Shown here one piece after another: positions 1,571-31,765 of a DNA stretch of 32,000 nt (the stretch's first letter is position 1; each line of letters starts with the position of its first letter). Below the pieces are notes generated by a model, which worked only from the letters and a program-made list of their open reading frames with translations, was not told the origin of the DNA and did not search any database. A program made the position numbers and the translations under genes. Source of the DNA: Candidatus Electronema halotolerans (GTDB lineage: Bacteria; Desulfobacterota; Desulfobulbia; Desulfobulbales; Desulfobulbaceae); assembly GCA_942493095.1 (NCBI GenBank), contig OW818675.1, positions 3,167,951 to 3,199,950 of the forward strand, written 5' to 3'.

Positions 1571-3202
1571 TTAGACCAGCGTCCGCAGACCCTCGGTCAG
1601 TTCCTGTCTGTTTTCGCCTTCAATAACCAGCGCATTGCCAACCAGCTCGCTCACGCCTGCCACCTGCACTTGCGGGACCCAGTATTCCATCAGAGTGGTC
1701 AGGGTGGCCCGGTCAATGGCGCAGACGCAGGCCAAGGTGTTGATGGCATGCTGGTCATAGACATGCTTGACCGCATTGGCGCGGGGCAGGCCGGAGCGCA
1801 TCCGCAGCTCCATGATCTCCTCGGTGTTCAGGGCCGTGCCGGAACCGCAGCAGAAGGTTTTCTCGCGGATGGTGTTTTCCGGCATCTCGTGCCATTCGTC
1901 GAGCACGTTGTCCAAGATGTAGCGCGGCTCCTCCAGCAGGCCCATCGCTCTGGCCGGGTTGCAGGAGTCATGGAAGGTGGCCTTGACATGCGCATTGCGG
2001 CTCTTGTCCAGCTTGATCTTGCCGTGCTTGATCAGGTCGGCAGTGAACTCGCTGATATGGACCATCTTGGTTGAGGCGGCATTGTCAAAGACGGTGCCGG
2101 TCAGCGGCGACTTGGGCACTTCAAGGAAGTCTGCCGGGCCGTTCATGGTGTCCATATACTGATGAATGACGCGCCACATGTGGCCGCACTCGCCGCCAAG
2201 AATCCACTTCACGCCCAGCCGCTTGGCCTCAGCATACATCTTGGCGTTCAGCTTCTTCATCATCTCGTTGGAGGTGAAGAGGCCAAAGTTGCCGCCCTCA
2301 GAGGCGTAGGTTGACCATGTGTAATCCAAGCCGATGGCTTCAAAAAGCAGGAGATAGCCCATGCAGGTGAAAATGCCCGGCTCGGCAAACACATCTGCGG
2401 ACGGGGTGATGAACAGCACTTCCGCGCCCTTGCGGTTGAAGCTGGGATTGACCTTGACTCCGGTCAGATTCTCGATGTCCTCGCAGAGAAATTCAACATT
2501 GCCCTTGAAGGCCTGCGGGGTCAGTCCCATGTGGTTGCCAGTCCGGTTCGAGTTGGCAACCGGCTCCATAGCCCAGTTGATGCCGCAGCCGACCAAATGG
2601 AGCAGCTCGCGCAGCATCATGGTGATCTCGGCAGTGTCAATGCCGTAAGGGCAGAAAACTGAGCAACGGCGGCACTCTGTGCATTGATAGGCGTACATGA
2701 ACCACTCTTTCAGCACGCCAACGGTCATCTCGCGCCCGCCCGCCATTTTGCCGAGCAGCTTGCCTGCCAAGGTGAATTCTTGGCGATAGACCGAGCGCAG
2801 CAGCTCGGCCCGCAGCACCGGCATGTTCTTGGGGTCGCCCGTGCCAAGAAAGAAATGGCATTTGTCCGCGCAGGCGCCGCAGCGGACGCAGCAGTCCATG
2901 AAAATCTTCAGAGAACGGAAGCGGTCAAGGCGGTCTGCCAGCCCCTTGATGATAATCTCCTTCCAGTTCTCCGGCAGCTTCCAGTCTTCATCTTCTGGAT
3001 TCCAAGCGCGGGCGTTGGGAAAGCTCACACCCTGCTGGCTGTTGAGATATTCCAGTTTTTCCGGCTTGGTTGGATAGGCATAGTTGCCCGGCTTGAACAC
3101 TGCCGGGATGTCCATCCACTCTTTTTCCGGCATTGAGCCGGTCATCAGCGTCGGCTCTTCGACCACGCTCTTTGCCAGCTCATCCTTTTTTATGACGGCC
3201 AT
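1571..3202 (-). CDS. dsrK: DsrK, HdrD-like Fe-S/CCG-domain catalytic subunit of the Dsr membrane complex
   Basis: 543 aa. Two ferredoxin-type CX2CX2CX3C motifs (CVRCGACADKC, CTECRRCSVFC) are followed by a CCG-type cysteine motif (FCCGSG). It sits between the NarI-like dsrM and the trihaem dsrJ. Confidence 0.9.
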   Translation of the reverse strand: MAVIKKDELAKSVVEEPTLMTGSMPEKEWMDIPAVFKPGNYAYPTKPEKLEYLNSQQGVSFPNARAWNPEDEDWKLPENWKEIIIKGLADRLDRFRSLKIFMDCCVRCGACADKCHFFLGTGDPKNMPVLRAELLRSVYRQEFTLAGKLLGKMAGGREMTVGVLKEWFMYAYQCTECRRCSVFCPYGIDTAEITMMLRELLHLVGCGINWAMEPVANSNRTGNHMGLTPQAFKGNVEFLCEDIENLTGVKVNPSFNRKGAEVLFITPSADVFAEPGIFTCMGYLLLFEAIGLDYTWSTYASEGGNFGLFTSNEMMKKLNAKMYAEAKRLGVKWILGGECGHMWRVIHQYMDTMNGPADFLEVPKSPLTGTVFDNAASTKMVHISEFTADLIKHGKIKLDKSRNAHVKATFHDSCNPARAMGLLEEPRYILDNVLDEWHEMPENTIREKTFCCGSGTALNTEEIMELRMRSGLPRANAVKHVYDQHAINTLACVCAIDRATLTTLMEYWVPQVQVAGVSELVGNALVIEGENRQELTEGLRTLV

Positions 3203-3225
3203 TGTGATTATTCCTTATGCACCTG

Positions 3226-4251
3226 TTATTCGTCAGCCTTTTCAGGCAGTTCCTTTTCCACCGGGATGCCCTGCTCAACCATGTCCGCCCGGAATTCGTC
3301 CTCGTAACCAGCATAAGAATGGGGCTTGATGTCCGGGTTCCACGGATTGATGTGCCGCCGCATCCTGCTGTCATTGGCCAAGTTGCGGGTCGGACTGAGA
3401 AAAACCCCGCCCATGTGCATCAACTTGGAAAAGGGGAAGTAGGCCAGCAGGCAGGAAACTAAGAAGAGATGTATGTAGAATATCGAGGCAATCTCAGCAG
3501 GGACAACCGGCTTGAAGGTGGTCAGGCCGACCGCCAAGTTCTTAATGGCAATGATATCAACACCGCTACGCAGGAAGTAGCGCATCAGGATGCCGGTAAG
3601 GGCAATGCCGATCAGGAGGAAAAGCGGGAAATAGTCGTTGGCCAAGGAGATGTAATTCACCGGTTTGATCAGGAAACGGCGGAGCAGCAGAGCCAGCAGG
3701 CCGATGAGGATCAGCGCGTCCGTGACATAAATGGACAGCTCCGGGGTCAGATGGAGGGAAAATCCGTCCAAGGCATCCAGCCCGCTGATCAGGAAGGGCA
3801 CCGGCTCCACAAAGAGGCGCAGATGACGGAGCAGGATGATCAACATGCTGTAATGGAAGAGAATGCCGAAAAGCCAGAGCCATCTGGTCGCCTTGTAGCT
3901 CAGAACCGGGCCAGGCTTGATGCTGGCCTTGGTGTTGCGCCAGAGGGAGCGGAAGAGGAAAATCTCCATGAACATCCGGCCCAGCACTTCACCGGTGCTC
4001 AACGGCGCTTCCAGCTTGTCCCGCTTCACCCACGGCATGGAATAGCCCTGCCCGCAGGTGGTCGGGATTCTGAACGGCACTGGCGATCTGGCCCAATAGA
4101 GGACCCGCCAGCAGAAGCCGCCGATAAAGAGAAGCAGGGCCGCGTAGGGCACCACAACACCGAACAGGTATTGCAGGCCGGGGATCACGGACCCTATCCA
4201 TGCAATCACCGCCAAGACGATGACCGCAGCCAAGGGGAAGATGTACTTCAT
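3226..4251 (-). CDS. dsrM: DsrM, NarI/HdrE-like dihaem b membrane subunit
   Basis: 341 aa, polytopic and hydrophobic throughout. The N-terminus MKYIFPLAAVIVLAVIAW...WRVLYWARSPVPFRIPTTCGQ is typical of DsrM/NarI-like proteins. There is a 23-nt gap to dsrK. Confidence 0.9.
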   Translation of the reverse strand: MKYIFPLAAVIVLAVIAWIGSVIPGLQYLFGVVVPYAALLLFIGGFCWRVLYWARSPVPFRIPTTCGQGYSMPWVKRDKLEAPLSTGEVLGRMFMEIFLFRSLWRNTKASIKPGPVLSYKATRWLWLFGILFHYSMLIILLRHLRLFVEPVPFLISGLDALDGFSLHLTPELSIYVTDALILIGLLALLLRRFLIKPVNYISLANDYFPLFLLIGIALTGILMRYFLRSGVDIIAIKNLAVGLTTFKPVVPAEIASIFYIHLFLVSCLLAYFPFSKLMHMGGVFLSPTRNLANDSRMRRHINPWNPDIKPHSYAGYEDEFRADMVEQGIPVEKELPEKADE

Positions 4252-22548: not shown

Positions 22549-22986
22549 ATGTCACGAAGAGATAGTTATCATGATGTTGTAAAATACTTGCTTATACAAG
22601 AAGGGTGGAGTGTCACGCACGATCCGTACATATTCGGAACTGATCCTAAATTGTTAGCAGATTTGGGAGCGGAGAGGGTGATAGCCGCTGAACGTAAGCA
22701 TGAAAAGATTGTTGTCGAAATCAAGAGCTTTCTGCGCACGTCTCAGGTTGCCGATTTTGAGGATGCTGTCGGCAAGTACAGTGTGTACAATATTTTTCTC
22801 CAACAGCAGGAACCGGACAGGAGATTGTGGCTGGCCGTCCCGCTTCATGCAGCCGAAAATATCCTCAGCCGAGAGGTGGGGCGGGTTACGCTTGAAGCGA
22901 TGAGGATTCCTGTTATTGTCTATTCATTAACCGGAGAGGAGCCTTTGATATGGAAAATTCCGAAGAATTCTACAGGCAGTGTGTGA
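22549..22986 (+). CDS. xisH: XisH family protein
   Basis: 145 aa. SYHDVVKYLLIQEGWSVTHDPY...LADLGAERVIAAERKHEKIVVEIKSFL...AVGKYSVY closely follows the XisH pattern (FHD.Vk.AL.k.GW.IT.DP...aDL.AE..iAAE....KIaVEIKSF). Confidence 0.85.
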   Translation: MSRRDSYHDVVKYLLIQEGWSVTHDPYIFGTDPKLLADLGAERVIAAERKHEKIVVEIKSFLRTSQVADFEDAVGKYSVYNIFLQQQEPDRRLWLAVPLHAAENILSREVGRVTLEAMRIPVIVYSLTGEEPLIWKIPKNSTGSV

Positions 22987-23303
22987 AAAAGTTTCTGGCA
23001 TCTTATGAATCTTTAAAAACGAACGATTCGCAGATAGAACTTATCTTTGATGATGTACGGATGCGGTACATGGCCGTTTGGGTAGGATGGCAGAAGCACA
23101 AACGAATTCATGAGTGCGCTGTTCATATTGATATATCTGACGGAGATGTGGTTATTCAGCGGAACGACACGGAAGATATGCTTGATGAAGAGCTGATAAA
23201 AATGGGAATTCCGAAATCGCGCATACGATCGGAGATTATTCCTCCTGAAGCTCGGTTTTATTTGGAAGAAGGGAGGCGCGGTGCAGAATCGCCGGGTGCG
23301 TGA
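22950..23303 (+). CDS. xisI: XisI family protein
   Basis: 117 aa, overlapping xisH by 37 nt, with GGAGAGGA about 10 nt upstream. YRQCVKKFLASY...ELIFDDVRMRYMAVWVGWQKHKRIHECAVHIDISDGDVVIQRNDTEDMLDEELIKMGIPKSRI matches the XisI pattern. Confidence 0.85.
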   Translation: MENSEEFYRQCVKKFLASYESLKTNDSQIELIFDDVRMRYMAVWVGWQKHKRIHECAVHIDISDGDVVIQRNDTEDMLDEELIKMGIPKSRIRSEIIPPEARFYLEEGRRGAESPGA

Positions 23304-23366
23304 GGTCTGTTTCTGTGAAACGAAAGCGGAGAGATTTTATTGTTTCTATGTAACGGAGTATTGTTT

Positions 23367-23576
23367 ATGATTGCCAAAGATATGCTTGCTCAGATTCAAC
23401 ATGCGCCGCTGGCAGAGCGCATACAGCTTATTGAGCTTATTTTGAGGTCATTGAAAGAGGATATACAGTCCAGCATCTCCAGCACGTCTCGACGGAAATC
23501 ATTTAAAGTACGCAAGTTTCATCTTGGGCAGGAAGTTGCTTGTGATCGTGATGAAATCTATGCTGAACGAGGGTAA
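23367..23576 (+). CDS. putative antitoxin (addiction-module component) paired with the PIN toxin
   Basis: 69 aa from ATG 23367, with GGAG 8 nt upstream. MIAKDMLAQIQHAPLAERIQLIELILRSLKE is the short helical N-terminus seen in antitoxins of PIN toxins. Its stop lies 8 nt before vapC. Confidence 0.65.
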   Translation: MIAKDMLAQIQHAPLAERIQLIELILRSLKEDIQSSISSTSRRKSFKVRKFHLGQEVACDRDEIYAERG

Positions 23577-23584
23577 GAAGACAC

Positions 23585-24055
23585 ATGCTCTTTGCAATTG
23601 ATACGAACCTGCTGGTTTATGCCCATAATTCAGATTCTGAATTTCATCAGCAAGCTGCCCAGTTCATCGAACGCATGTTCAATGAGTATGATGCGGACGG
23701 GCAGTTGTCTGTTTGTCTTTCAACGCAGGTGCTGACAGAGTTTATCAATGTCATGACACGACAGATGCTGCGGAGGCCTCTGTCAATTCAAGAAGCAGCA
23801 GATGTTGTGCAGGATTATCTTGACACTGGAGTTCTTGTTCTTTCCCATAAGGAAACGCAGATGCAAACGTTTCTGACGCTGTTGAAAACAGTCACAACAC
23901 GCAAAAAGATGTTTGATGTGGTGCTTGCCGCGACATTGAAAGATCATGAGATTGCCGGATTGTACACGGTGAATACCGTTGACTTTGAAGATTTTGAATG
24001 GCTGAAGGTGATCAATCCGCTCAAGACAGACGGTGAAGAGCAATCCTTCGCTTGA
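23585..24055 (+). CDS. vapC: PIN-domain ribonuclease toxin, VapC family
   Basis: 156 aa. The N-terminal MLFAIDTNLLVYA carries the first catalytic Asp. The size and the upstream small partner fit a type II TA module. Confidence 0.85.
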   Translation: MLFAIDTNLLVYAHNSDSEFHQQAAQFIERMFNEYDADGQLSVCLSTQVLTEFINVMTRQMLRRPLSIQEAADVVQDYLDTGVLVLSHKETQMQTFLTLLKTVTTRKKMFDVVLAATLKDHEIAGLYTVNTVDFEDFEWLKVINPLKTDGEEQSFA

Positions 24056-24177
24056 TGAGATGCAGCCAAGGGGTGGTGTTAGAGGTTTTGCAGGGGAAGA
24101 GAAATTTGGATATCAGGCAGATAAAAGCATTAAGCACCAGATTCAATGTGTCGCCTTTGGTATTCATTCAGGAATAG
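24055..24177 (+). pseudogene. truncated HigA/XRE-type HTH antitoxin remnant (C-terminal half only)
   Basis: My translation of frame 1 gives MRCSQGVVLEVLQGKRNLDIRQIKALSTRFNVSPLVFIQE* (40 aa). ..L.GKR.l....i..L...F.vSP..f is the recognition-helix/C-terminal part of XRE/HigA HTH domains, but helices 1-2 are absent. Its ATG overlaps the vapC TGA (TGATG). Confidence 0.3.
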
Positions 24178-24320
24178 TGTGCGGCAGGGCTGGAAATGGG
24201 TAAGCGGGCGAAAAAGAAATGATGCGAGAACGCATCCTACGAGACTTTGGCTCAAATTGTTTGATTTCGTTTCACTCAAGCAGGCCTGCTAAACTATTTA
24301 AATTACAAAATAATATACCA

Positions 24321-24830
24321 ATGAGCAATGTTCGTCCGAATCTGAAGGCATTCAAGGATCGAGAAGATTTAGTCTTTGTCGTAGATCGTTTCAATGCGCT
24401 TGAGGATAATCTTACAAGTATCCTGACGAGAGAGATTGGCGTACCTAAAGAACAAGAATCCTTTGTCCGGGATATTGTTTTCAACAATACAATTGTATCT
24501 TTTTCGGCAAAAGTGAAATTATTTTTACACTTGCGGTCAATACGGAATTGGCCGAAAATTGATCCCAAAGATTTTCACCGGCTGATGCACATCCGTAATC
24601 AGTTCGCTCATTGCAATCCAACGCAATATATTCATGTCACCATGAACAAAGGAGATAAGCCCGTTCAATCTGAAGTAAAAATCATGCTCGAATCGCTGAG
24701 TAATGCGGGGGAGATTGTTTCAGTCGAGTCTTCGATAGCACTCAAAGAATTCACAGAGATATATGATCGACTCAGGACGTACCTGTTTAAGGTGTCACAA
24801 GCAGATTCACCTGATGATAAGATGGTTTGA
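24321..24830 (+). CDS. small HEPN-superfamily protein (R-x4-H motif; MtlR/DUF4145/Abi-like)
   Basis: The start is set at ATG 24321, where the very AT-rich segment begins (the ORF is open from 24219). The 169-aa helical protein has SFSAKVKLFLHLRSI...DFHRLMHIRNQFAH, i.e. the h..hRNxxAH HEPN signature. No SD. Confidence 0.6.
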   Translation: MSNVRPNLKAFKDREDLVFVVDRFNALEDNLTSILTREIGVPKEQESFVRDIVFNNTIVSFSAKVKLFLHLRSIRNWPKIDPKDFHRLMHIRNQFAHCNPTQYIHVTMNKGDKPVQSEVKIMLESLSNAGEIVSVESSIALKEFTEIYDRLRTYLFKVSQADSPDDKMV

Positions 24831-24911
24831 AATATGGAGGATTCCGGTCAAGCATCCCTACGTAACTAATATTAAATATACACATATAAATCCAACTCCA
24901 TATCTGCAATT

Positions 24912-25304
24912 ATGAACGAGAACGAAAAGAAGCTATCATTTGAATTGCAAGTTGAAAGGAATAAAAATGGACAACTCGAAGAGAAAATCGAGCAACAGAA
25001 AAAAGAGATTCAAATTATAGCATCTATTTTAATAGTAACATTGATTATTTTATTTTTCTTTCTGTATGCTAATTATAAATATGAAATGGAGAAAATTTAC
25101 CAAAGTACCATTTTTATGGCAATTGCTGGGGCAATTTTTTTATTTTTTTACAAAATATATCCAAAAATATCATCCATGATTTTTTGTAGTTTTTTTGTAT
25201 TAGCTGCATATAAAAAGGGTGGTTTTATAGACTGGTCTTTTGGAATACTTTTCGCAATTTTATTCATATTTAATTTTTTCAAAAAAAATGATGCCTCCAT
25301 GTAG
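24912..25304 (+). CDS. coiled-coil / four-TM membrane protein, no recognisable family
   Basis: 130 aa, the most AT-rich stretch of the window. The N-terminus is charged (KKLSFELQVERNKNGQLEEKIEQQKKEIQ). Four hydrophobic segments follow (IIASILIVTLIILFFFLY, IFMAIAGAIFLFFY, MIFCSFFVLAAY, WSFGILFAILFIFNFF). Confidence 0.6.
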   Translation: MNENEKKLSFELQVERNKNGQLEEKIEQQKKEIQIIASILIVTLIILFFFLYANYKYEMEKIYQSTIFMAIAGAIFLFFYKIYPKISSMIFCSFFVLAAYKKGGFIDWSFGILFAILFIFNFFKKNDASM

Positions 25305-25428
25305 TTCTGCTTGAGTGCAACAAAAGCGGACAACGAAATTCAACGACCATCTCAGTCCATTTTGCCGCTTCCATCGCTTCAAAGTCCATTGGAATTGCCC
25401 CCTTTCCAACTTGCATCCACACTTTCCC

Positions 25429-28400
25429 ATGCCCTACATCGCCGACCTCCACACCCATTCGCAGTACTCCCGCGCCACCAGCAAGAGCAGCACCCTGCCC
25501 GGCTTGGCGGCTTGGGCGGCAGTCAAGGGCATTGACCTTGTCGCCACTGGCGATTTCACCCATCCGGGCTGGTTCGCCCATCTGTGCGAGCATCTCGAAC
25601 CAGCAGAGCCGGGCCTGTTCCGCCTCAAACAGCCGCCCTCTGCCGCTGAATTAACTGCGCTTCTGCCGCCCGGCCTGCAAGCAGACTGCTCGCGCATCCG
25701 CTTCCTTCTCAGCGCGGAAATCAGCTCAATCTACAAGCGCGGCGGCAAGGTGCGCAAAATCCACAGCATTCTTTATGCCCCGGATTTCGAGGCCGTGCGC
25801 CGGATCAACAGCGTGCTGGCCGGCATCGGCAATCTGGAGGCCGACGGCAGGCCCATCCTCGGCTTGGACGCGGAAAAGCTGCTCGCTGTCCTCCTTGAAC
25901 AGGCTCCAGAAGGATTCCTCGTTCCCGCCCATATCTGGACCCCGTGGTTCTCCCTCTTCGGCTCCAAATCCGGCTTTGACAGCATTGAGGAATGCTTCGG
26001 CGACCTGAGCAGCGAAATTTTCGCCTTGGAAACCGGGCTTTCCTCAGACCCGGAAATGAACCGCCACATCTCGGCCTTGGACCGCTTCTCGCTCATTTCC
26101 AATTCAGACTGCCACTCGCCGAGCAAACTGGGCCGGAACTGCAATATCTTTGACACAGAACTTGATTTTTTCGCTTTGCAGCAGGCACTGCGCCAGCCGC
26201 AGGACGCAGCAGGCAGGCAGCGTTTCCAAGCCACGATTGAATTTTATCCTGAAGAGGGCAAGTACCACTGCGACGGCCATCGCAAATGCGGGGTCTGTTT
26301 TGAACCTGCCCAGACCGTGGCCGCCAAAGGCATCTGCCCGGAATGCGGCAGACCGCTGACTGTCGGGGTGCTGTATCGGGTGATGGAGTTGGCTGACCGC
26401 GAGACTGCGCTTTGGCCGACCGGCTCGCCAGCAGTTCACAGCCTGATTCCCCTGCCAGAGCTGCTCGGCGAGCTGTTCAACTGCGGCCCGGCCACCAAAA
26501 AAGTGGAAACTGCTTATGCCAAGCTGATCAATACCTTCGGCTCGGAATTCCGTCTTCTGCTGGCAACGCCGCTGCCGGAGATTGCCGTCGTTTCGCCGCT
26601 CTTGGCTGAGGCAATCAAGCGGGTGCGCGAAAAGCAAGTCATCCGCAAGCCCGGCTTTGACGGCGAATTCGGCGTGATCCGCGTTTTTGCCGAAAATGAG
26701 CAGGCAGAACTGGGCGGGCAGATGAATCTTTTTGGCCTGCGTCCGGCCAAACCCCGCGCTAAGAAAGCAGCGCAGAAGACTGTTTTCCGTAAACGCGATA
26801 CGGCGACGGCTTTACAGTCAGAAGGAAAAAAGTTGCTCAACCCGGAGCAGCAGGCAGCGGTTGCAAGTCAGGCTGCCAAGATTCTCGTGCAGGCCGGGCC
26901 GGGTACTGGCAAGACGCACACCCTTGTCCAGCGGGCTGTGCGTCTGCTGGATAACGGCCAAGGGCCGCTGGCAGTCATCACTTTCACCAACAAGGCGGCT
27001 GAGGAAATCCGCCAGCGGTTGGCTGCGGCAACAGACAATGCGCCAGTTTGGGTGGACACCTTCCACGGTTTCTGCCTGCACTGGTTGCGGCAGCATCAGC
27101 CTGAGCTTGCTTTGGTCGGGCCAGCGATGCGGCAGCGGATTTTCCTCCGCCAATATCCGCAGCTCTCCGAGCGCGAACGGAACAAGCTCCAGCGGCAGGC
27201 AGGGCTGTTTTTGGCAGAGCAGCCGGTCTTGCCGGAAAACTATGCTGAAGATGACCCGTTGCGGCCTTATTTTGCCTATCTCCGCGCACACAATTTGCTT
27301 GATCTGGACGAGGCAGTTCCGGCCTGCACCGCCCTTTTGCACGGAGACAGCGAGTTTGCCGCCGAGCTGCGGGCGGCTGTCGCGCATTTGCTCGTGGATG
27401 AATTTCAAGACCTTAATGCCGCCCAATACGAATTAGTCCGCCTCTTGGCGGAAACTGCTTCAATCTTTGCCATCGGCGACCCAGATCAGGCCATTTACGG
27501 TTTCCGGGGCGCGAATCCGGCCTGGTTCCGCCGTTTCGCCGAAGAGGAGCAGCCGGAACGCCATCATCTGACTGCCAACTACCGCAGCGGCGCAGCGATT
27601 CTGGAAGCAGCGGTGGCAGTGATTGCCAACAATTATCCACCCGATACAAAACAGAGCTTTGGCAAGGCGGCCAGCAATAAACAGGCACTGCTCTATCGTC
27701 ATGCCGCTGCCACCGCTGCTGCTGAGGCCAGATTTGTTGCCGAGCAAATTCAGCAGCTCATCGGCGGCACCTCGCACCGGGAGATTGACCGGCTGGCCGG
27801 GGCTGAAGGCGGGCTTGCCCTATCCGAGATAGCCATTCTCTGCCGCACCGCCCGGCAAATGCCGCTTATTGCCCAAGCCTTGGCCGAGCGCACCATTCCC
27901 TGTCAGGCGGTTGATCTACAGCCTTTTTATCTGAGCGGTGAAACCAAGATTCTCTATTATTGGATATTGCTGGCTGCGGAACGGATTGATCAGGCGGAAC
28001 TGCTCGTTCTTTTGGAAAACGATGAGGTCAGCAAAGAATTGCTTGCTGCGGCTGAACAGGTCTTGGCAGAACAGGAGAACAGCCGTTCACCGCTGGCGGA
28101 CTTACTGGCTGTAGATTCTTTGCCGGAATTGTTGCGGAATTGTCTCGCCAAAACGGCGGAATTTGCTGCCCAGCTTGCTCAGGAAGCACCTGTTGCTGCG
28201 GTTGACCGCATCACAGCCAATTGCGGCCTGAACAAGGATGATTCCGATAGTATCCGTTTCCGTAACATGGCTGCATCCGCCGTATCCCTGCCAGCCTTTG
28301 CCGAACATCTTCGCCGCCACGAGAACAGCGTCATCTATGATGAGCGGGCCGAGGCTGTGCTGCTTGCCACTCTCCACGCAGCCAAGGGCTTGGAGTTCAA

Positions 28401-28704
28401 GGCGGTCTTTGTCACTGGCTGCGAAGAGGGGCTGCTGCCGCTGACTCCCCGCGCCGCCCTCGACTCAGCAGCAGAGCAGGAACATCTTGCTGAGGAGCGG
28501 CGGCTCTTCTTTGTCGGCCTGACCCGCGCTGCGGAAACCCTCTATCTGTGCAGCGCAGGCGAACGGCAGGGCTTTGCCGGTATCCAACGCCAGACACCTT
28601 CCCACTTTCTTGCCGAAATTCCGGCGGAACTGCTCAACAGTCCGCTCCTGTCGAAGAAAAAATCTAAGAAAAGAAGTGCGGGCAAGCAGTTGCTGTTGTT
28701 TTAA
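25429..28704 (+). CDS. fusion protein: EndoQ-like PHP-domain nuclease with Cys4 finger (N) plus UvrD/Rep-type SF1 DNA helicase (C)
   Basis: The start is set at ATG 25429 (MPYIADLHTHSQYS); the ORF is open from GTG 25315. The N-terminal half has DLHTHS, KGIDLVATGDF, PAHIWTPWFSLFGSKSGFDSIEECF, and HCDGHRKCG...CPECGRPLTVGVLYRV. A Lys/Ala-rich linker follows. From about 26836 the helicase motifs are AGPGTGKT, ITFTNKAAEE, LLVDEFQDLN, IGDPDQAIYGFRGA, LTANYRS, TLHAAKGLEFKAVFV, RRLFFVGLTRA. Confidence 0.85.
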   Translation: MPYIADLHTHSQYSRATSKSSTLPGLAAWAAVKGIDLVATGDFTHPGWFAHLCEHLEPAEPGLFRLKQPPSAAELTALLPPGLQADCSRIRFLLSAEISSIYKRGGKVRKIHSILYAPDFEAVRRINSVLAGIGNLEADGRPILGLDAEKLLAVLLEQAPEGFLVPAHIWTPWFSLFGSKSGFDSIEECFGDLSSEIFALETGLSSDPEMNRHISALDRFSLISNSDCHSPSKLGRNCNIFDTELDFFALQQALRQPQDAAGRQRFQATIEFYPEEGKYHCDGHRKCGVCFEPAQTVAAKGICPECGRPLTVGVLYRVMELADRETALWPTGSPAVHSLIPLPELLGELFNCGPATKKVETAYAKLINTFGSEFRLLLATPLPEIAVVSPLLAEAIKRVREKQVIRKPGFDGEFGVIRVFAENEQAELGGQMNLFGLRPAKPRAKKAAQKTVFRKRDTATALQSEGKKLLNPEQQAAVASQAAKILVQAGPGTGKTHTLVQRAVRLLDNGQGPLAVITFTNKAAEEIRQRLAAATDNAPVWVDTFHGFCLHWLRQHQPELALVGPAMRQRIFLRQYPQLSERERNKLQRQAGLFLAEQPVLPENYAEDDPLRPYFAYLRAHNLLDLDEAVPACTALLHGDSEFAAELRAAVAHLLVDEFQDLNAAQYELVRLLAETASIFAIGDPDQAIYGFRGANPAWFRRFAEEEQPERHHLTANYRSGAAILEAAVAVIANNYPPDTKQSFGKAASNKQALLYRHAAATAAAEARFVAEQIQQLIGGTSHREIDRLAGAEGGLALSEIAILCRTARQMPLIAQALAERTIPCQAVDLQPFYLSGETKILYYWILLAAERIDQAELLVLLENDEVSKELLAAAEQVLAEQENSRSPLADLLAVDSLPELLRNCLAKTAEFAAQLAQEAPVAAVDRITANCGLNKDDSDSIRFRNMAASAVSLPAFAEHLRRHENSVIYDERAEAVLLATLHAAKGLEFKAVFVTGCEEGLLPLTPRAALDSAAEQEHLAEERRLFFVGLTRAAETLYLCSAGERQGFAGIQRQTPSHFLAEIPAELLNSPLLSKKKSKKRSAGKQLLLF
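25524..25579 (+). repeat. right copy of the diverged direct repeat (inside the 5' end of the intact EndoQ-helicase gene)
   Basis: See the left copy at 22000-22056. 25524-25558 is caagggcattgaccttgtcgccactggcgatttca. Confidence 0.75.
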
Positions 28705-29699: not shown

Positions 29700-31541
29700 T
29701 CACTCTGGCCGCAAGCTCAGGTGCTCCATAATGTAACGGCGGCGGACAGGCGTGTTCTTGCCCATGTAGAATTCCATTATCGGACGCACTTCGGCCAAAC
29801 TGTCAAGCCGCACCGGTTGCAGGCGCATTTCCGGGCCAATGAACTGCTTGAACTCTGGCGGCGAAATCTCGCCCAAGCCCTTGAAACGGGTCACTTCAGC
29901 ATTGCTGCTGCCGCTCTTCAAGCTGCGCACAGCCTCATCCTTTTCCCGCTCCGAGTAGCAGTAAATCGTCTGCTTCCTGTTCCGCACCCGGAAGATCGGG
30001 GTCTCCAAAATATAGACATGGCCCTGCCTGATGAGCAGGTCAAAATAATGAAGGAAAAAAGTCAGGAGCAGATTGCGGATATGCAGGCCATCGACATCCG
30101 CATCTGTGGCAAGAATGACTTTGTCAAAGCGGAGACCAGCAACCGACTCCTCCACATTCAGGCTCCGCATCAGGGCGTACATTTCCTCATTTTTATAGAG
30201 TAAGTCCAGCCGCTGACCAAAGACATTCATTGGCTTGCCCTTGAGCGAGAACACGGCCTGAATAAGCGGATCGCGGGAGGAGACGATTGAGCCTGCCGCA
30301 GACTGCCCTTCGGTGATGAAGAGCATGTTTTCCTCGCCCGGCTTGGACGGCTTGCCCGGCTGCGGATGATATTTGCAGTCCTTGAGCTGCGGTATTTTGA
30401 AAGCAACCTTTTTAGCCTGCGCCTTGGCCTCCTTGCGCACAGTTTGCAATTCCTTGCGCACCCGCTCATTGCGCTGGGCCTTGGCAAGCAGCAGCTCCGC
30501 TGTTTCCGGGTGCTTGTAGAGATGGGTGGCCACGGCTTCCCGCACTGCATTGACAAGCCAAGGCCGGATGTCGGTGTTGCCGAGCTTGTTCTTGGTCTGC
30601 GACTCAAAGACCGGCTCCTGCACCTTGACCGCGAGGATGCCGACCAAGCCGTCGCGCACATCTTGGCCTGTGTATTTTTTGCCGGAAAACTCGTTCACCC
30701 CCTTGAGAATGCCCTCACGGAAAGCGGAAAGATGGGTGCCGCCCTCGGATGTGTAGGTGCCATTGACAAAGGAATAATAGGTTTCAGTGTATTCCTCAGT
30801 GTGGGTGAAGACAAATTCCAAGGCGGTCTGAGCAGATTCAATGGCCGGATAAATGCCGTTGTTGTCCAATTCTTTATCCAGCATGTCGGGCAGACCTTTT
30901 TTGGAAAAGTATTCCCTGCCCGGCTCATCCGCCCAGTTCAGGCGCAGGCGAAGCCCGGCATTGAGATAGGCATACCGCCAGAGTCGCTGCTCAATATAGC
31001 TGAGATCAAAAATGAACTCAGGAAACAGCTCCTTGTCCGGCAAAAATTCCACCAAGGTGCCGTTCGGCTCGCCGCTTTCCCCTTCCTCCTCCTGCGCCAG
31101 CACACCATGAGCAAAAATCGCCTTCTTGAAGCGGCCCTCCCGGTGCGAACAGACCATGAACTGCTCAGACAGGGCATTGACCGCCTTGGTGCCCACGCCG
31201 TTCAAGCCGACCGAAAACTGGAAAACCTCGGTGTTGTATTTCGCGCCAGTGTTGATCATGGACACGCATTCCACCACCTTGCCGAGCGGAATGCCCCGGC
31301 CATAGTCGCGCACACAGCAGCGGCCCGCCGCATCAACAGCAATCTCGACCCGCTTGCCGCAGCCCATGATGAACTCATCAACTGCGTTGTCGACCACCTC
31401 TTTGAGGAGGATATAGATGCCGTCGTCTGGGTCAGAACCATTGCCAAGGCGGCCAATGTACATGCCGGGCCGCTTGCGGATGTGCTCAAGCGAACTGAGG
31501 GTTTTGATCTTGGATTCGTCGTACTGATGCTGGGCTGCCAC
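29700..31541 (-). CDS. type IIA DNA topoisomerase subunit B (short, ParE-like form)
   Basis: The ORF is open to a TTG at 31727, with no ATG before the conserved core. I place the start at GTG 31541 (MAAQHQYDESKIKTLSSLEHIRKRPGMYIG), but this is uncertain. GHKL ATPase segments are LLKEVVDNAVDE, DYGRGIP, GLNGVGTKAVNALS. The Toprim segment is LFITEGQSAAGS, followed by ILATDADVDGLHI. It lacks the long insertion of proteobacterial GyrB. Confidence 0.85.
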   Translation of the reverse strand: MAAQHQYDESKIKTLSSLEHIRKRPGMYIGRLGNGSDPDDGIYILLKEVVDNAVDEFIMGCGKRVEIAVDAAGRCCVRDYGRGIPLGKVVECVSMINTGAKYNTEVFQFSVGLNGVGTKAVNALSEQFMVCSHREGRFKKAIFAHGVLAQEEEGESGEPNGTLVEFLPDKELFPEFIFDLSYIEQRLWRYAYLNAGLRLRLNWADEPGREYFSKKGLPDMLDKELDNNGIYPAIESAQTALEFVFTHTEEYTETYYSFVNGTYTSEGGTHLSAFREGILKGVNEFSGKKYTGQDVRDGLVGILAVKVQEPVFESQTKNKLGNTDIRPWLVNAVREAVATHLYKHPETAELLLAKAQRNERVRKELQTVRKEAKAQAKKVAFKIPQLKDCKYHPQPGKPSKPGEENMLFITEGQSAAGSIVSSRDPLIQAVFSLKGKPMNVFGQRLDLLYKNEEMYALMRSLNVEESVAGLRFDKVILATDADVDGLHIRNLLLTFFLHYFDLLIRQGHVYILETPIFRVRNRKQTIYCYSEREKDEAVRSLKSGSSNAEVTRFKGLGEISPPEFKQFIGPEMRLQPVRLDSLAEVRPIMEFYMGKNTPVRRRYIMEHLSLRPE

Positions 31542-31765
31542 GGTGTCAAACTGGGATGAAGTAAGGAATGATTCGGGAAAAACTGGCCCAGTGTACCCTT
31601 TGCCGCGTGGCAAGTCAAAAGGATATAGCGGCCCGCTGACAGAGCGGTTCCTGAAAAAGAGGGCTGGCAAAAAACGAACTGGCTGGTTATCATGGTCTGA
31701 TAACAGAAAAAAACACTGCCGCTGCAAGCTGCAATTACCGCAACCCGGAGATTTTGGGAGCTTTT

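What the first reader, a model, noticed from the sequence alone, without database searches (positions are those of the whole stretch)
25429..28704. EndoQ-like PHP nuclease fused in one polypeptide to a UvrD/Rep helicase, at the edge of a TA/defence islet
Seen in sequence:
- The N-terminal ~430 aa carry a PHP metal site (DLHTHS), KGIDLVATGDF and PAHIWTPWFSLFGSKSGFDSIEECF.
- They also carry a four-Cys finger (HCDGHRKCG...CPECGRPLTVGVLYRV). As far as I can recall, this combination characterises endonuclease Q / TIGR00375-type proteins rather than polymerase-associated PHP domains.
- After a Lys/Ala-rich linker comes a complete SF1A helicase: AGPGTGKT, VDEFQD, GDPDQAIYGFRGA, TANYRS, TLHAAKGLEFKAVFV, VGLTRA.

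Established knowledge: EndoQ is a stand-alone enzyme that nicks 5' of dU, dI and abasic sites. UvrD-like helicases partnered with nucleases recur in repair (AddAB/RecBCD-type) and in anti-phage systems (Gabija GajB, Nhi-like nuclease-helicases).

Inference: a covalent lesion/odd-base-specific nuclease plus translocase could be a dedicated repair machine. Alternatively, given its position next to a variable islet, it could act as a restriction-like factor against uracil-, hypoxanthine- or otherwise non-canonical-base DNA, or work downstream of deaminase attack.

I do not know of a characterised member of this fusion architecture.
Basis: partly seen in the sequence, partly recalled or inferred. 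Interest (0 to 1): 0.7.

Follow-up and report, generated by a model that had tools for sequence, protein, structure and literature searches.

The report
Clamp-tethered EndoQ nuclease–UvrD helicase fusion
This cable-bacterium gene joins a nuclease that nicks DNA next to deaminated bases to a UvrD-type unwinding motor and two sliding-clamp docking motifs; it is a widespread, uncharacterised chromosomal repair gene, not a defence-island gene.

Summary
Window 25429-28704 (+) encodes a 1091-aa protein.

- **N-half (residues 1-426):** aligns end to end with Pyrococcus furiosus EndoQ (E 9e-55; model TM 0.85). Every metal, lesion-pocket and wedge residue is identical.
- **C-half (residues ~467-1075):** a complete UvrD/PcrA/Rep-type SF1A helicase (TM ~0.8).
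- **Correction:** the conserved zinc site is His284/Cys287/Cys303/Cys306, not four cysteines.
- **New here:** two conserved beta-clamp-binding-type motifs, GQxxLF in the disordered linker and QLxLF at the extreme C-terminus. The C-terminal motif occurs in 57/64 fusions across phyla versus 1/898 background genes.

The fusion is not rare. It occurs in at least 598 species genomes across roughly ten phyla, and 126 of the 150 best cluster representatives are 950 aa or longer. It has native GC content and housekeeping neighbours elsewhere. It is absent from 50,697 phage records and 2.9 million viral contigs, and no defence family recurs next to it. The adjacent low-GC TA islet is a local insertion.

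Shiraishi et al. (2016, Suppl. Fig. S1) already listed about 35 long "bacterial EndoQ homologs" with the C-terminal clamp motif. They did not mention the helicase.

Best reading: a clamp-recruited nick-and-unwind excision enzyme for dU/dI/AP lesions. The defence reading is not supported.

The parts
25429..28704 (+). Whole gene: EndoQ-like nuclease / UvrD-like helicase fusion, 1091 aa plus stop
   Evidence: The ORF is and the ATG at 25429. The protein is 100% identical to 'DNA 3'-5' helicase [Candidatus Electronema halotolerans]'. GC is 0.586, like the rest of the window.
25429..26223 (+). PHP-fold catalytic domain of the EndoQ module (residues ~1-265). Metal ligands are H8, H10, E97, H112, H168, D227 and H229. 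The lesion pocket is T171, E201, T202, G203, L204, S205 and N225. The wedge residue is W173. A family-specific 7-residue insertion (SSIYKxGG, residues 99-106) lies between ligands E97 and H112.
   Evidence: phmmer alignment to 5zb8/7k30. The residue map shows every Pfu functional residue identical except L168 to T, which contributes main chain only. These residues are invariant in A1 and A2. Residue roles are taken from PMC5961232 and PMC8307549.
26224..26448 (+). Zn-binding domain (residues ~266-340). The domain boundaries are approximate. The conserved ligands are H284, C287, C303 and C306 (nt 26278-26346), a His-Cys3 variant of the archaeal Cys4 site.
   Evidence: Residue map. Conservation: C287, C303 and C306 are invariant, H284 is at least 90% conserved, and C281 and C289 are not conserved.
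26449..26706 (+). EndoQ C-terminal helical (DNA-binding) domain (residues ~341-426), including K357, the equivalent of Pfu K320
   Evidence: The alignment runs through Pfu residue 389. Precomputed PF27218 MJ0043_C hit. Foldseek 5zb8 TMt 0.85.
26716..26736 (+). Internal clamp-binding-type motif G430-Q431-M-N-L434-F435-G436, at the start of the disordered linker
   Evidence: G430, Q431, L434 and F435 are invariant in 60 homologues. The motif is present in 120/120 close homologues and 32/64 species-level fusions. In the split locus L078 it forms the C-terminus of the separate EndoQ protein (...GQGTLF*).
26737..26826 (+). Lys/Ala/Arg-rich flexible linker (residues 437-466)
   Evidence: pLDDT is below 50 for residues 440-466. 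Length and sequence vary in the alignments.
26827..28653 (+). SF1A UvrD/PcrA/Rep-type helicase core (residues 467-1075). Motifs: Q (Q474), I (G490-T496), Ia (T518-T520), Ib (T544, H546), II (D657-D661), III (G683-G694), IV (N717-R719), V (T981-F990), VI (V1029-R1033). There is no UvrD/PcrA C-terminal Tudor-like domain.
   Evidence: Pfam and NCBIfam. PDB sequence search: PcrA 6.5e-54, UvrD 1.4e-51, Rep 1.6e-45, and the alignment ends at PcrA residue 649 of 724. Foldseek UvrD 2is1_A TMt 0.79. Motif residues are invariant in A2.
28654..28701 (+). Disordered basic tail (residues 1076-1091) ending in the C-terminal clamp-binding-type motif Q1087-L-L-L-F1091 (nt 28687-28701)
   Evidence: Q1087, L1090 and F1091 are invariant in A2. 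pLDDT is below 50 with a short terminal helix. The motif is found in 57/64 fusions across phyla versus 1/898 background genes, and in 114/116 close homologues. The same motif was tabulated for long bacterial EndoQ homologues by Shiraishi et al. 2016, Suppl. Fig. S1.

Best explanation
The gene encodes a chromosomal, vertically inherited DNA-repair enzyme that combines three functions in one polypeptide.

**The three parts**
1. An EndoQ-type lesion-specific endonuclease.
2. A UvrD/PcrA-type 3'-to-5' helicase.
3. Two beta-sliding-clamp docking motifs, one after each module.

**Proposed mechanism**
1. The clamp (DnaN), left on or loaded onto DNA at or behind replication or repair sites, recruits and probably stimulates the protein through the QLxLF-type motifs. 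This would mirror PCNA acting on archaeal EndoQ through its PIP box.
2. The N-terminal module flips a deaminated or missing base (dU, dI, dX or an AP site) into its conserved pocket. It cuts the phosphodiester bond immediately 5' of the lesion, leaving a 3'-OH and a 5'-phosphate that carries the lesion.
3. The helicase is tethered by a ~30-residue flexible linker. It loads at this nick on the undamaged strand, translocates 3'-to-5' and peels off the lesion-bearing strand as a 5' flap or single strand.
4. A 5' nuclease (Pol I 5'-nuclease, a FEN-type enzyme or RecJ) removes the displaced strand. A clamp-bound polymerase extends the 3'-OH, and ligase seals the nick.

This would be a long-patch 'nick-and-unwind' form of nucleotide-incision / alternative-excision repair. 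It is analogous to the MutL nick plus UvrD step in mismatch repair.

**Shown versus inferred**
- Shown here (sequence and structure prediction only): domain identities, conservation of all catalytic, pocket and helicase-motif residues, the two conserved motifs in disordered segments, the wide chromosomal distribution, and the existence of a split two-gene version.
- Inferred: substrate range, clamp binding, which strand the helicase loads on, and the downstream enzymes.
For: **EndoQ half**
- It aligns over its full length to PfuEndoQ at E 9e-55.
- All mutationally validated metal ligands, pocket residues and the wedge Trp are identical and invariant in the family. Residue roles come from PMC5961232 and PMC8307549.
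- The model matches 5zb8 and 7k30 at TM 0.83-0.85.

**Helicase half**
- All SF1A motifs are invariant.
- Its closest solved relatives are PcrA, UvrD, UvrD1 and Rep, with TM 0.75-0.81 to DNA-bound UvrD.

**Functional coupling of the two halves**
- About 62 of 80 species loci carry a single fused ORF.
- In the Nitrospirae locus L078 the two halves are adjacent genes 10 nt apart.
- Stand-alone forms are each most similar to fused proteins of related lineages.

**Clamp motifs**
- The C-terminal Q[LM]xL[FL] motif is present in 57/64 fusions from about ten phyla versus 1/898 background genes.
- Each half of the split L078 pair ends in its own motif.
- Both motifs lie in segments predicted to be disordered.
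- Archaeal EndoQ binds PCNA and is stimulated by it through a C-terminal PIP box. The same authors listed beta-clamp consensus motifs at the C-termini of bacterial homologues (PMC4858679).
- The original EndoQ paper proposed a helicase-dependent removal step (PMC4357722).

**Housekeeping character**
- Native GC content.
- Orthologues at 52-84% identity through Electronema, Electrothrix and Desulfobulbaceae.
- Neighbours are proA-nadD or mreBCD-PBP2-rodA.
- No phage or viral-contig copies and only one distant plasmid hit.
Against: - There is no biochemical or genetic evidence for any fused member in the searchable literature.
- TIGR00375 and the UvrD, PcrA and Rep equivalog cut-offs are not reached. 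Both halves are therefore diverged subfamilies and could have shifted specificity.
- Clamp binding is inferred from short linear motifs only. The internal motif is lineage-restricted: 32/64 species-level fusions have it and the Desulfovibrionia loci lack it.
- AlphaFold2 gives no confident inter-domain geometry (pTM 0.53), so nick hand-off is conjecture.
- A UvrD-type motor could instead move along the nicked strand away from the lesion.
- About 10 of 80 loci have lost the helicase with no adjacent replacement. The nuclease can evidently work without a covalent helicase.
- I could not check whether these genomes also carry canonical uvrD/pcrA, ung or nfi.
Confidence: 0.58

Rival explanations
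1. Restriction-like defence. The fusion recognises uracil-, hypoxanthine- or otherwise non-canonical-base DNA of invading phages, or DNA attacked by deaminases. It nicks that DNA repeatedly, and the helicase promotes its degradation.
For: - In the window the gene abuts a low-GC islet with XisH/XisI, VapBC and orphan ORFs.
- In Electrothrix YB6 a PIN pair and an MmeI fragment lie upstream, and in Electronema VV IS elements do.
- The helicase half hits PADLOC GajB models at E 6e-77.
Against: - The GajB hits are the generic UvrD fold. PcrA and UvrD score far better than GajB in the PDB search (1e-54 versus 5e-16).
- The EndoQ half hits no defence model, and no GajA-like partner is present.
- No defence family recurs among 132 neighbours of 33 diverse loci. 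Neighbours are housekeeping or regulatory genes.
- The gene has native GC, unlike the islet.
- It shows a near-vertical identity gradient and a broad phyletic spread.
- There are no copies in 50,697 phage records or 2.9 million viral contigs, and only one distant hit in 72,556 plasmids.
- Clamp-binding motifs point to the host replisome and repair machinery.
Confidence: 0.1
2. Replication-fork accessory helicase with a built-in lesion nuclease. The UvrD/Rep/PcrA-like motor travels with the replisome through the clamp and clears protein roadblocks or reverses RecA filaments. The EndoQ module deals opportunistically with dU or dI in template or nascent DNA. The two activities would not be a sequential nick-then-unwind pair.
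For: - Two clamp-binding-type motifs.
- Its closest solved relatives (PcrA, UvrD, UvrD1, Rep) include known accessory and anti-recombinase helicases.
- A flexible linker with no predicted fixed inter-domain interface.
- The helicase can be lost while the nuclease persists.
Against: - Equivalog scores are far below the Rep, PcrA and UvrD cut-offs.
- The fusion, and in L078 the tight operon, is strongly and widely conserved with this one nuclease family in particular. That argues for mechanistic coupling.
- In the split locus each module keeps its own clamp motif, as expected for two steps on one clamp-marked site.
Confidence: 0.2
3. End-processing helicase-nuclease of the AddAB/AdnAB/RecBCD type. 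The PHP module would act as a 3'-phosphoesterase or exonuclease on DNA ends that the helicase unwinds, rather than as a base-specific endonuclease.
For: - PHP domains in PolX and DnaE act as 3'-5' exonucleases or phosphoesterases (established knowledge of those families).
- Helicase-nuclease fusions built on UvrD-like motors are typical of double-strand-break resection. The model has weak structural matches to AddA, RecB and AdnB (TM 0.3-0.5).
Against: - The base-flipping pocket, the wedge Trp and the steric-gate Ser and Gly residues specific to EndoQ are all invariant.
- The Zn-binding and C-terminal DNA-binding domains of EndoQ are retained.
- There is no PD-(D/E)XK nuclease, no partner subunit gene, and AddA sequence similarity is only E 4e-19.
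Confidence: 0.06

Closest known systems
Endonuclease Q (EndoQ; Pyrococcus furiosus PF1551 in PDB 5ZB8 and 7K30-7K33; Bacillus pumilus EndoQ; TIGR00375 / PF27218 MJ0043_C family)
   Same: - Full-length homology of residues 1-426 (E 9e-55; TM 0.85).
- Identical metal ligands, lesion pocket, wedge Trp and DNA-binding Lys.
[quoted passage not shown]
- A sliding-clamp motif directly after the C-terminal domain: a PIP box in archaea, GQxxLF here.
   Different: - Characterised EndoQs are stand-alone enzymes of ~390-430 aa. Here ~660 further residues (linker, UvrD-like helicase and a second clamp motif) follow.
- One Zn ligand is His instead of Cys.
- There is a 7-residue invariant insertion (SSIYKxGG) between two metal ligands and a ~21-residue variable insertion.
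- The score is below the TIGR00375 curated cut-off (171 versus 326.6 bits).
UvrD / PcrA / Rep (SF1A 3'-to-5' DNA helicases). In particular, UvrD acting at the nick in MutL-dependent mismatch repair and in UvrABC excision repair.
   Same: - All helicase motifs and the 1A/1B/2A/2B fold (TM 0.75-0.81).
- The proposed role, unwinding from a repair nick so that the damaged strand is removed, is the role of UvrD in mismatch repair and nucleotide excision repair.
   Different: - The nicking enzyme is covalently attached rather than a separate protein such as MutH, MutL or UvrC.
- It lacks the C-terminal Tudor-like domain. The alignment stops at PcrA residue 649 of 724, and a basic tail with QLLLF-COOH follows instead.
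- Scores are far below the UvrD, PcrA and Rep equivalog cut-offs (about 250-270 bits versus 911-1144).
Long 'bacterial EndoQ homologs' tabulated by Shiraishi et al., Sci Rep 2016 (PMC4858679, Suppl. Fig. S1), e.g. Desulfobulbus japonicus WP_028582461, Desulfovibrio vulgaris WP_012612878, Geobacter metallireducens WP_004512662
   Same: This is the same protein family and length class (945-1244 aa), with the same C-terminal QLxLF beta-clamp consensus. The window protein is simply another member.
   Different: That paper lists only the motif positions. It never mentions the helicase domain (zero occurrences of 'helicase') or the internal second motif, and it does not characterise any long form.
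Gabija (GajA OLD-family nuclease plus GajB UvrD-like helicase) and other defence nuclease-helicase systems
   Same: A UvrD-like helicase works together with a nuclease. PADLOC GajB HMMs match the helicase half.
   Different: - There is no GajA or TOPRIM/OLD partner.
- The nuclease is a lesion-specific PHP enzyme.
- The gene is not associated with defence islands or mobile elements.
- GajB structures are much more distant than PcrA and UvrD (5e-16 versus 1e-54).
AddAB / RecBCD / AdnAB helicase-nucleases
   Same: A UvrD-like SF1A motor and a nuclease share one polypeptide.
   Different: In those enzymes the nuclease is a C-terminal PD-(D/E)XK domain acting on unwound ends within a hetero-oligomer. 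Here it is an N-terminal PHP/EndoQ module that acts on base lesions within duplex DNA, and there is no partner gene.

Membership tests
Endonuclease Q (EndoQ / TIGR00375) | PHP-fold catalytic domain with metal ligands His8, His10, Glu76, His84, His139, Asp193 (and His195) | tested here: met
   These map to H8, H10, E97, H112, H168, D227 and H229, all identical. H10, E97, H112, H168, D227 and H229 are invariant in both A1 and A2. H8 is invariant in A1 and at least 90% conserved in A2.
Endonuclease Q (EndoQ / TIGR00375) | Deaminated-base pocket (Thr142, Glu167, Gly169, Leu170, Ser171, Asn191) and wedge Trp144 | tested here: met
   T171, E201, G203, L204, S205, N225 and W173 are identical. Only Pfu L168, a main-chain contributor, is replaced by T202. 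All except N225 are invariant in both A1 and A2. N225 is at least 90% conserved in A1 and invariant in A2.
Endonuclease Q (EndoQ / TIGR00375) | Zn-binding domain with a Cys4 site (Cys249, 252, 268, 271) | tested here: met
   The domain is present, and three Cys are invariant (C287, C303, C306). The first ligand is His284 (at least 90% conserved), giving a His-Cys3 variant.
Endonuclease Q (EndoQ / TIGR00375) | C-terminal helical DNA-binding domain | tested here: met
   The alignment runs through Pfu residue 389 and K320 corresponds to K357. Precomputed PF27218 MJ0043_C hit. TM 0.85 to 5zb8.
Endonuclease Q (EndoQ / TIGR00375) | Curated NCBIfam TIGR00375 score cut-off (326.6 bits) | tested here: not met
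   171 bits, E 5e-50. This is a diverged bacterial subfamily.
Endonuclease Q (EndoQ / TIGR00375) | Stand-alone enzyme of ~400 aa | tested here: not met
   The protein is a 1091-aa single ORF with a helicase attached.
Endonuclease Q (EndoQ / TIGR00375) | Cleaves the phosphodiester bond 5' of dU, dI, dX or AP sites | not testable with these tools
   This needs an oligonucleotide incision assay.
UvrD / PcrA / Rep SF1A helicases | Helicase motifs Q, I, Ia, Ib, II, III, IV, V and VI | tested here: met
   All are present in the window protein and invariant in 60 homologues. Pfam UvrD-helicase 2e-54 and UvrD_C 3e-35.
UvrD / PcrA / Rep SF1A helicases | Four-subdomain 1A/1B/2A/2B architecture | tested here: met
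   Foldseek gives TMt 0.73-0.81 to UvrD, PcrA and Rep over ~650 columns.
UvrD / PcrA / Rep SF1A helicases | Equivalog-level similarity (NCBIfam pcrA 911, uvrD 1144, rep 951 bits) | tested here: not met
   270, 253 and 236 bits respectively.
UvrD / PcrA / Rep SF1A helicases | C-terminal Tudor-like (RNAP/UvrB-interacting) domain | tested here: not met
   Homology ends at PcrA residue 649 of 724. Only a ~16-residue disordered basic tail follows.
Beta-sliding-clamp client proteins | QL[SD]LF-type pentapeptide in a disordered terminus or linker | tested here: met
   QMNLF (residues 431-435) and QLLLF-COOH (residues 1087-1091). The C-terminal motif occurs in 57/64 fusions versus 1/898 background genes. 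Both segments are predicted disordered. The consensus is as given in PMC4858679, Suppl. Fig. S1.
Beta-sliding-clamp client proteins | Physical binding to DnaN | not testable with these tools
   This needs SPR, ITC or pull-down experiments, or a multimer structure prediction, which is not available here.
Gabija (GajA/GajB) | Adjacent GajA (OLD-family ATPase-TOPRIM nuclease) partner gene | tested here: not met
   No neighbour matches such a protein. The GajB HMM hits reflect the generic UvrD fold.
AddAB / RecBCD / AdnAB | C-terminal PD-(D/E)XK (RecB-type) nuclease and a partner subunit | tested here: not met
   There is no such domain and no partner gene. addA and recB scores are ~130 bits against cut-offs of ~700.

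The most novel reading that the evidence does not exclude
The fused, doubly clamp-tethered protein is the ancestral and predominant bacterial form of EndoQ. It acts as a replication-coupled, mismatch-repair-like long-patch excision system for non-canonical bases. A single polypeptide on the beta clamp nicks 5' of misincorporated or deaminated dU or dI in newly replicated DNA and itself unwinds the damaged strand. This would supply the so-far unknown downstream step of EndoQ-initiated repair. A secondary consequence that the evidence does not exclude is restriction of uracil-DNA phages.
Probability: 0.3. Interest if true: 0.6.

Novelty: new variant of a known kind. Interest (0 to 1): 0.42.

Why it matters
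**An open step in EndoQ repair.** EndoQ-initiated repair has an unresolved downstream step: how is the lesion removed after the 5' nick? The discoverers proposed either strand displacement or helicase-dependent removal (PMC4357722). This protein bears on that question in three ways.
- A UvrD-type helicase is covalently attached.
- A tight two-gene version of the same pair exists.
- Each module carries its own clamp-binding motif.

Together these are a natural 'Rosetta-stone' argument that, in Bacteria, nick, unwinding and clamp recruitment form one pathway. The idea is directly testable with one recombinant protein.

**A correction to the textbook picture.** EndoQ is usually described as an essentially archaeal, stand-alone enzyme. 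Among its closest bacterial relatives the ~1,100-aa fused form dominates. It spans Thermodesulfobacteriota, Actinomycetota, Bacteroidota, Myxococcota, Chloroflexota, Planctomycetota and others.

**Relevance to cable bacteria.** For these organisms it is one more conserved genome-maintenance gene, not a defence gene.

**Annotation.** Public annotation as 'UvrD-helicase domain-containing protein' or 'DNA 3'-5' helicase' hides the nuclease half.

Tried and rejected
**Synteny and neighbourhood searches**
- I compared the window's flanks with 82 related loci. No flank gene is shared, even with Electrothrix, so position gives no functional clue.
- I looked for a universal neighbour by all-vs-all clustering. 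Only lineage-specific synteny and paralogue-rich histidine kinases and response regulators appeared.

**Defence and mobility tests**
- PADLOC on the fusion, the islet ORFs and 132 neighbours gave only generic GajB/UvrD hits and singletons. The Gabija/defence reading was rejected.
- tblastn of the EndoQ half against phages found nothing. Against plasmids it found one distant stand-alone hit on a 733-kb Brevibacillus replicon. Against IMG/VR viral contigs it found nothing.

**Islet boundaries**
- A tRNA scan and a repeat search for islet boundaries gave no tRNA and only weak repeats.

**Look-ups that failed**
- The look-up of encoding contigs has no record for the window protein itself.
- Three key papers are not held: PNAS 2021 (EndoQ-DNA complexes), J Bacteriol 2020, and Biosci Biotechnol Biochem 2017 on B. 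pumilus EndoQ. Any mention of the helicase domain in them could not be checked.
- Literature searches for EndoQ+UvrD, TIGR00375, MJ0043 and PHP-UvrD found no description of the fusion.

**Other**
- The AlphaFold2 full-length model gave no confident inter-domain orientation (pTM 0.53), so no structural argument about nick hand-off was made.
- AddAB-like end processing was considered and rejected because the base-flipping pocket is conserved and there is no RecB-type nuclease.

Full report
**1. The observation**

Window 25429-28704 (+) is a single ORF of 1091 codons. The ATG lies at 25429, and the N-termini of all homologues support it as the start. An upstream in-frame GTG at 25315 is not supported.

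By exact protein match, the window comes from Candidatus Electronema halotolerans, a cable bacterium of the Desulfobulbaceae.

**2. The N-terminal half is a genuine EndoQ-type nuclease**

Residues 5-426 align without major gaps to residues 5-389 of Pyrococcus furiosus EndoQ (PDB 5zb8, 7k30) at E 9e-55. NCBIfam TIGR00375 matches at E 5e-50, although below its curated cut-off (171 versus 326.6 bits). Homologues carry the newer Pfam family PF27218, MJ0043_C.

I mapped the residues defined by the crystal structure and mutagenesis (PMC5961232; PMC8307549) onto the window protein:
- Metal ligands H8, H10, E76, H84, H139, D193 and H195 correspond to H8, H10, E97, H112, H168, D227 and H229.
- Pocket residues T142, E167, G169, L170, S171 and N191 correspond to T171, E201, G203, L204, S205 and N225.
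- Wedge W144 corresponds to W173, and DNA-binding K320 to K357.

All are identical, and all are invariant or at least 90% conserved across 20 phylum-spanning and 60 closer homologues. The only change in the pocket is L168 to T202, a residue that contributes main chain only.

The conserved ligands are H284, C287, C303 and C306, where Pfu C249 is replaced by His. C281 and C289 of the window protein are not conserved.

The bacterial family also has an invariant 7-residue insertion (S99-S-I-Y-K-x-G-G106) between ligands E97 and H112.

**3. The C-terminal half is a complete UvrD/PcrA/Rep-type helicase**

Pfam UvrD-helicase matches at 2e-54 and UvrD_C at 3e-35. The best solved relatives are PcrA (6.5e-54), M. 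tuberculosis UvrD1, E. coli UvrD and Rep. AddA (4e-19) and GajB (5e-16) are far weaker. Motifs Q, I, Ia, Ib, II, III, IV, V and VI are invariant.

The equivalog cut-offs for UvrD, PcrA and Rep are not approached. Homology stops at PcrA residue 649 of 724, so the Tudor-like C-terminal domain is missing.

A full-length AlphaFold2 model has mean pLDDT 80.6 and pTM 0.53. It shows two well-folded modules. The linker (residues 440-466) and the tail (residues 1076-1091) are disordered. Foldseek gives TM 0.73-0.81 to DNA-bound UvrD, PcrA and Rep, and TM 0.83-0.85 to PfuEndoQ.

**4. Two sliding-clamp-type motifs**

Alignment A2 shows two invariant short motifs inside the disordered segments:
- G430-Q-x-x-L-F435 immediately after the EndoQ module (window: GGQMNLFG).
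- Q1087-x-x-L-F1091 at the very C-terminus (window: KQLLLF-stop; family consensus RQLSLF-stop), preceded by a basic stretch.

Both fit the bacterial beta-clamp-binding consensus QL[S/D]LF as given in PMC4858679.

The C-terminal motif is found within the last nine residues in 57 of 64 full-length fusions from about ten phyla. It appears in only 1 of 898 other predicted genes from the same loci, and in 114 of 116 close homologues. The internal motif is present in 120/120 close homologues and 32/64 species-level fusions.

In the Nitrospirae locus L078 the two halves are separate adjacent genes 10 nt apart. Each ends in its own motif: EndoQ ...GQGTLF* and helicase ...PQMGLF*.

This parallels archaeal EndoQ, whose C-terminal PIP box binds PCNA (KD 55 nM) and is required for PCNA stimulation of cleavage (PMC4858679).

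**5. Distribution and context**

*Distribution*
- An exhaustive phmmer search of the N-half against 1.84 billion cluster representatives finds 3600 hits, 1014 of them at E 1e-30 or better. Of the best 150, 126 are 950 aa or longer.
The best 80 span Thermodesulfobacteriota, Geobacter, Bacteroidota, Actinomycetota (Micromonospora, Streptomyces and others), Myxococcota, Chloroflexota, Binatia, Gastranaerophilales, Planctomycetota, Nitrospirota and Acidobacteriota.
- About 62 of those 80 loci are single fused ORFs of 1000-1230 aa. About 10 are stand-alone genes of 415-438 aa.
- Each stand-alone form is most similar to a fused protein of a related lineage. One example is 79% identical to the fused Geobacter argillaceus protein. 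This indicates repeated secondary loss or fission of the helicase.

*Genomic context*
- No flank gene of the window is syntenic in any other locus, and there is no universal neighbour.
- Where local synteny exists it is with housekeeping genes. proA-nadD overlaps the start in Desulfobulbus-type genomes, and mreB-mreC-mreD-PBP2-rodA lies directly downstream in two other Electronema genomes.
- A family census of 132 neighbours from 33 loci shows response regulators, radical-SAM enzymes, PAS/GGDEF proteins, sugar-nucleotide enzymes and the like. No defence family recurs.
- The EndoQ half has no match in 50,697 phage records or in 2.9 million IMG/VR contigs. It has one distant match in 72,556 plasmids, on a 733-kb Brevibacillus replicon.

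*Within the window*
- The gene's GC (0.586) equals that of the surrounding chromosome (0.55-0.58).
- The 3.3-kb stretch upstream drops to 0.41-0.49. It carries XisH/XisI, a VapBC pair and two orphan ORFs.
- The rest of the window is ordinary chromosomal content: DsrMK-like proteins, a tail-specific protease, an ABC transporter, ribF and a porin. Downstream are a YkgJ-type CxxCxxCC protein and a GyrB/ParE-like subunit.
- The islet is therefore an insertion next to a native gene. In other cable bacteria the same upstream flank holds different mobile or TA genes.

**6. Mechanism**

The best-supported model is a clamp-recruited nick-and-unwind excision enzyme. It would work in three steps:
1. The EndoQ module incises 5' of dU, dI or an AP site.
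2. The tethered 3'-to-5' helicase loads at the nick on the intact strand and displaces the lesion-bearing strand.
3. A 5' nuclease, a clamp-bound polymerase and ligase complete repair.

The domain identities, residue conservation, motif conservation and gene-fusion/fission pattern are shown here. Substrate range, clamp binding, the loading strand and the downstream enzymes are inferred from the characterised families. Those families are EndoQ (PMC4357722, PMC5961232, PMC4858679) and UvrD in mismatch and excision repair (established knowledge).

Three rivals are scored separately: a defence nuclease against non-canonical-base DNA, an accessory replisome helicase with an uncoupled nuclease, and an AddAB-like end processor. 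The defence reading is the least consistent with distribution, context and the clamp motifs, although it is not excluded as a side effect.

**7. Prior knowledge and novelty**

The searchable literature contains no description or characterisation of an EndoQ-helicase fusion.

However, Shiraishi et al. 2016 state that bacterial EndoQ homologues carry beta-clamp motifs at their C-termini. Their Supplementary Fig. S1 lists about 35 proteins of 945-1244 aa, including Desulfobulbus japonicus (QLSLF at 1092-1096), alongside about 10 short ones. The word 'helicase' does not occur in that paper.

Public annotation calls these proteins 'UvrD-helicase domain-containing protein', 'DNA helicase II/PcrA' or 'TIGR00375 family'. 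Three relevant papers could not be read.

The family is therefore catalogued but functionally undescribed. What this analysis adds:
- explicit recognition of the helicase partner;
- the second (internal) clamp motif;
- the split-gene version;
- the His-Cys3 zinc site;
- evidence that the fused form predominates in Bacteria and is chromosomal rather than defence-associated.

I rate it a new variant of a known kind, of moderate interest.

Noticed in passing
window 22549-25304: A low-GC islet (0.41-0.49 against ~0.57 elsewhere) sits directly upstream of the fusion gene. It contains XisH (22549-22986) and XisI (22950-23303), a small ORF (23340-23576) followed by a VapC-type PIN toxin (23585-24055), and two orphan ORFs (24219-24830 and 24912-25304) with no significant family hit. 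The first orphan contains 'IRNQFAH', an Rx4H string reminiscent of HEPN motifs. The second looks like a small membrane protein.
   Followed up: partly
window 24257-24283 and 25307-25333: A 27-nt imperfect inverted repeat (81% complementary) brackets the two orphan ORFs. Its right arm lies in the 125-nt gap before the fusion gene's start codon. It could be chance or the ends of a small inserted element.
   Followed up: no
window 29700-31727 (-): A type IIA topoisomerase B subunit scores well below the curated cut-offs of both GyrB (439 versus 740 bits) and ParE. Its first possible start, a TTG, would give a ~60-residue N-terminal extension. It is a divergent GyrB/ParE paralogue of unclear assignment.
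   Followed up: no
L001 7941-9855; L083 3813-9797; L082 171-722 (relatives of the window locus): In other cable-bacteria genomes the flank immediately upstream of the orthologous fusion gene holds different mobile or TA genes. These are a PIN pair plus an MmeI fragment in one, IS1 and DDE transposases in another, and small orphan ORFs in a third. Downstream, two Electronema genomes have mreBCD-PBP2-rodA. The upstream side looks like a recurrent insertion spot.
   Followed up: partly
L078 5583-8816 (Nitrospirae MAG); also L024: This is a split version of the fusion. A 423-aa EndoQ gene ending in GQGTLF* is followed 10 nt later by a 650-aa UvrD-like helicase gene ending in PQMGLF*. L024 (Oceanidesulfovibrio) also has an adjacent helicase ORF, possibly through a frameshift on a short contig.
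   Followed up: partly
window 25723-25746 (residues 99-106): A bacterial-family-specific insertion, SSIYKxGG, lies between the metal ligands E97 and H112. S99, S100, I101, Y102 and K103 are invariant, and the insertion is absent from P. furiosus EndoQ. It lies next to the active site and its role is unknown.
   Followed up: no
window 1571-4251 (-): A pair of genes encodes a 4Fe-4S/CCG-domain protein and a nitrate-reductase-gamma-like membrane protein. This is a DsrMK/HmeCD-type membrane redox module, typical of sulfur-metabolising Desulfobulbaceae.
   Followed up: no
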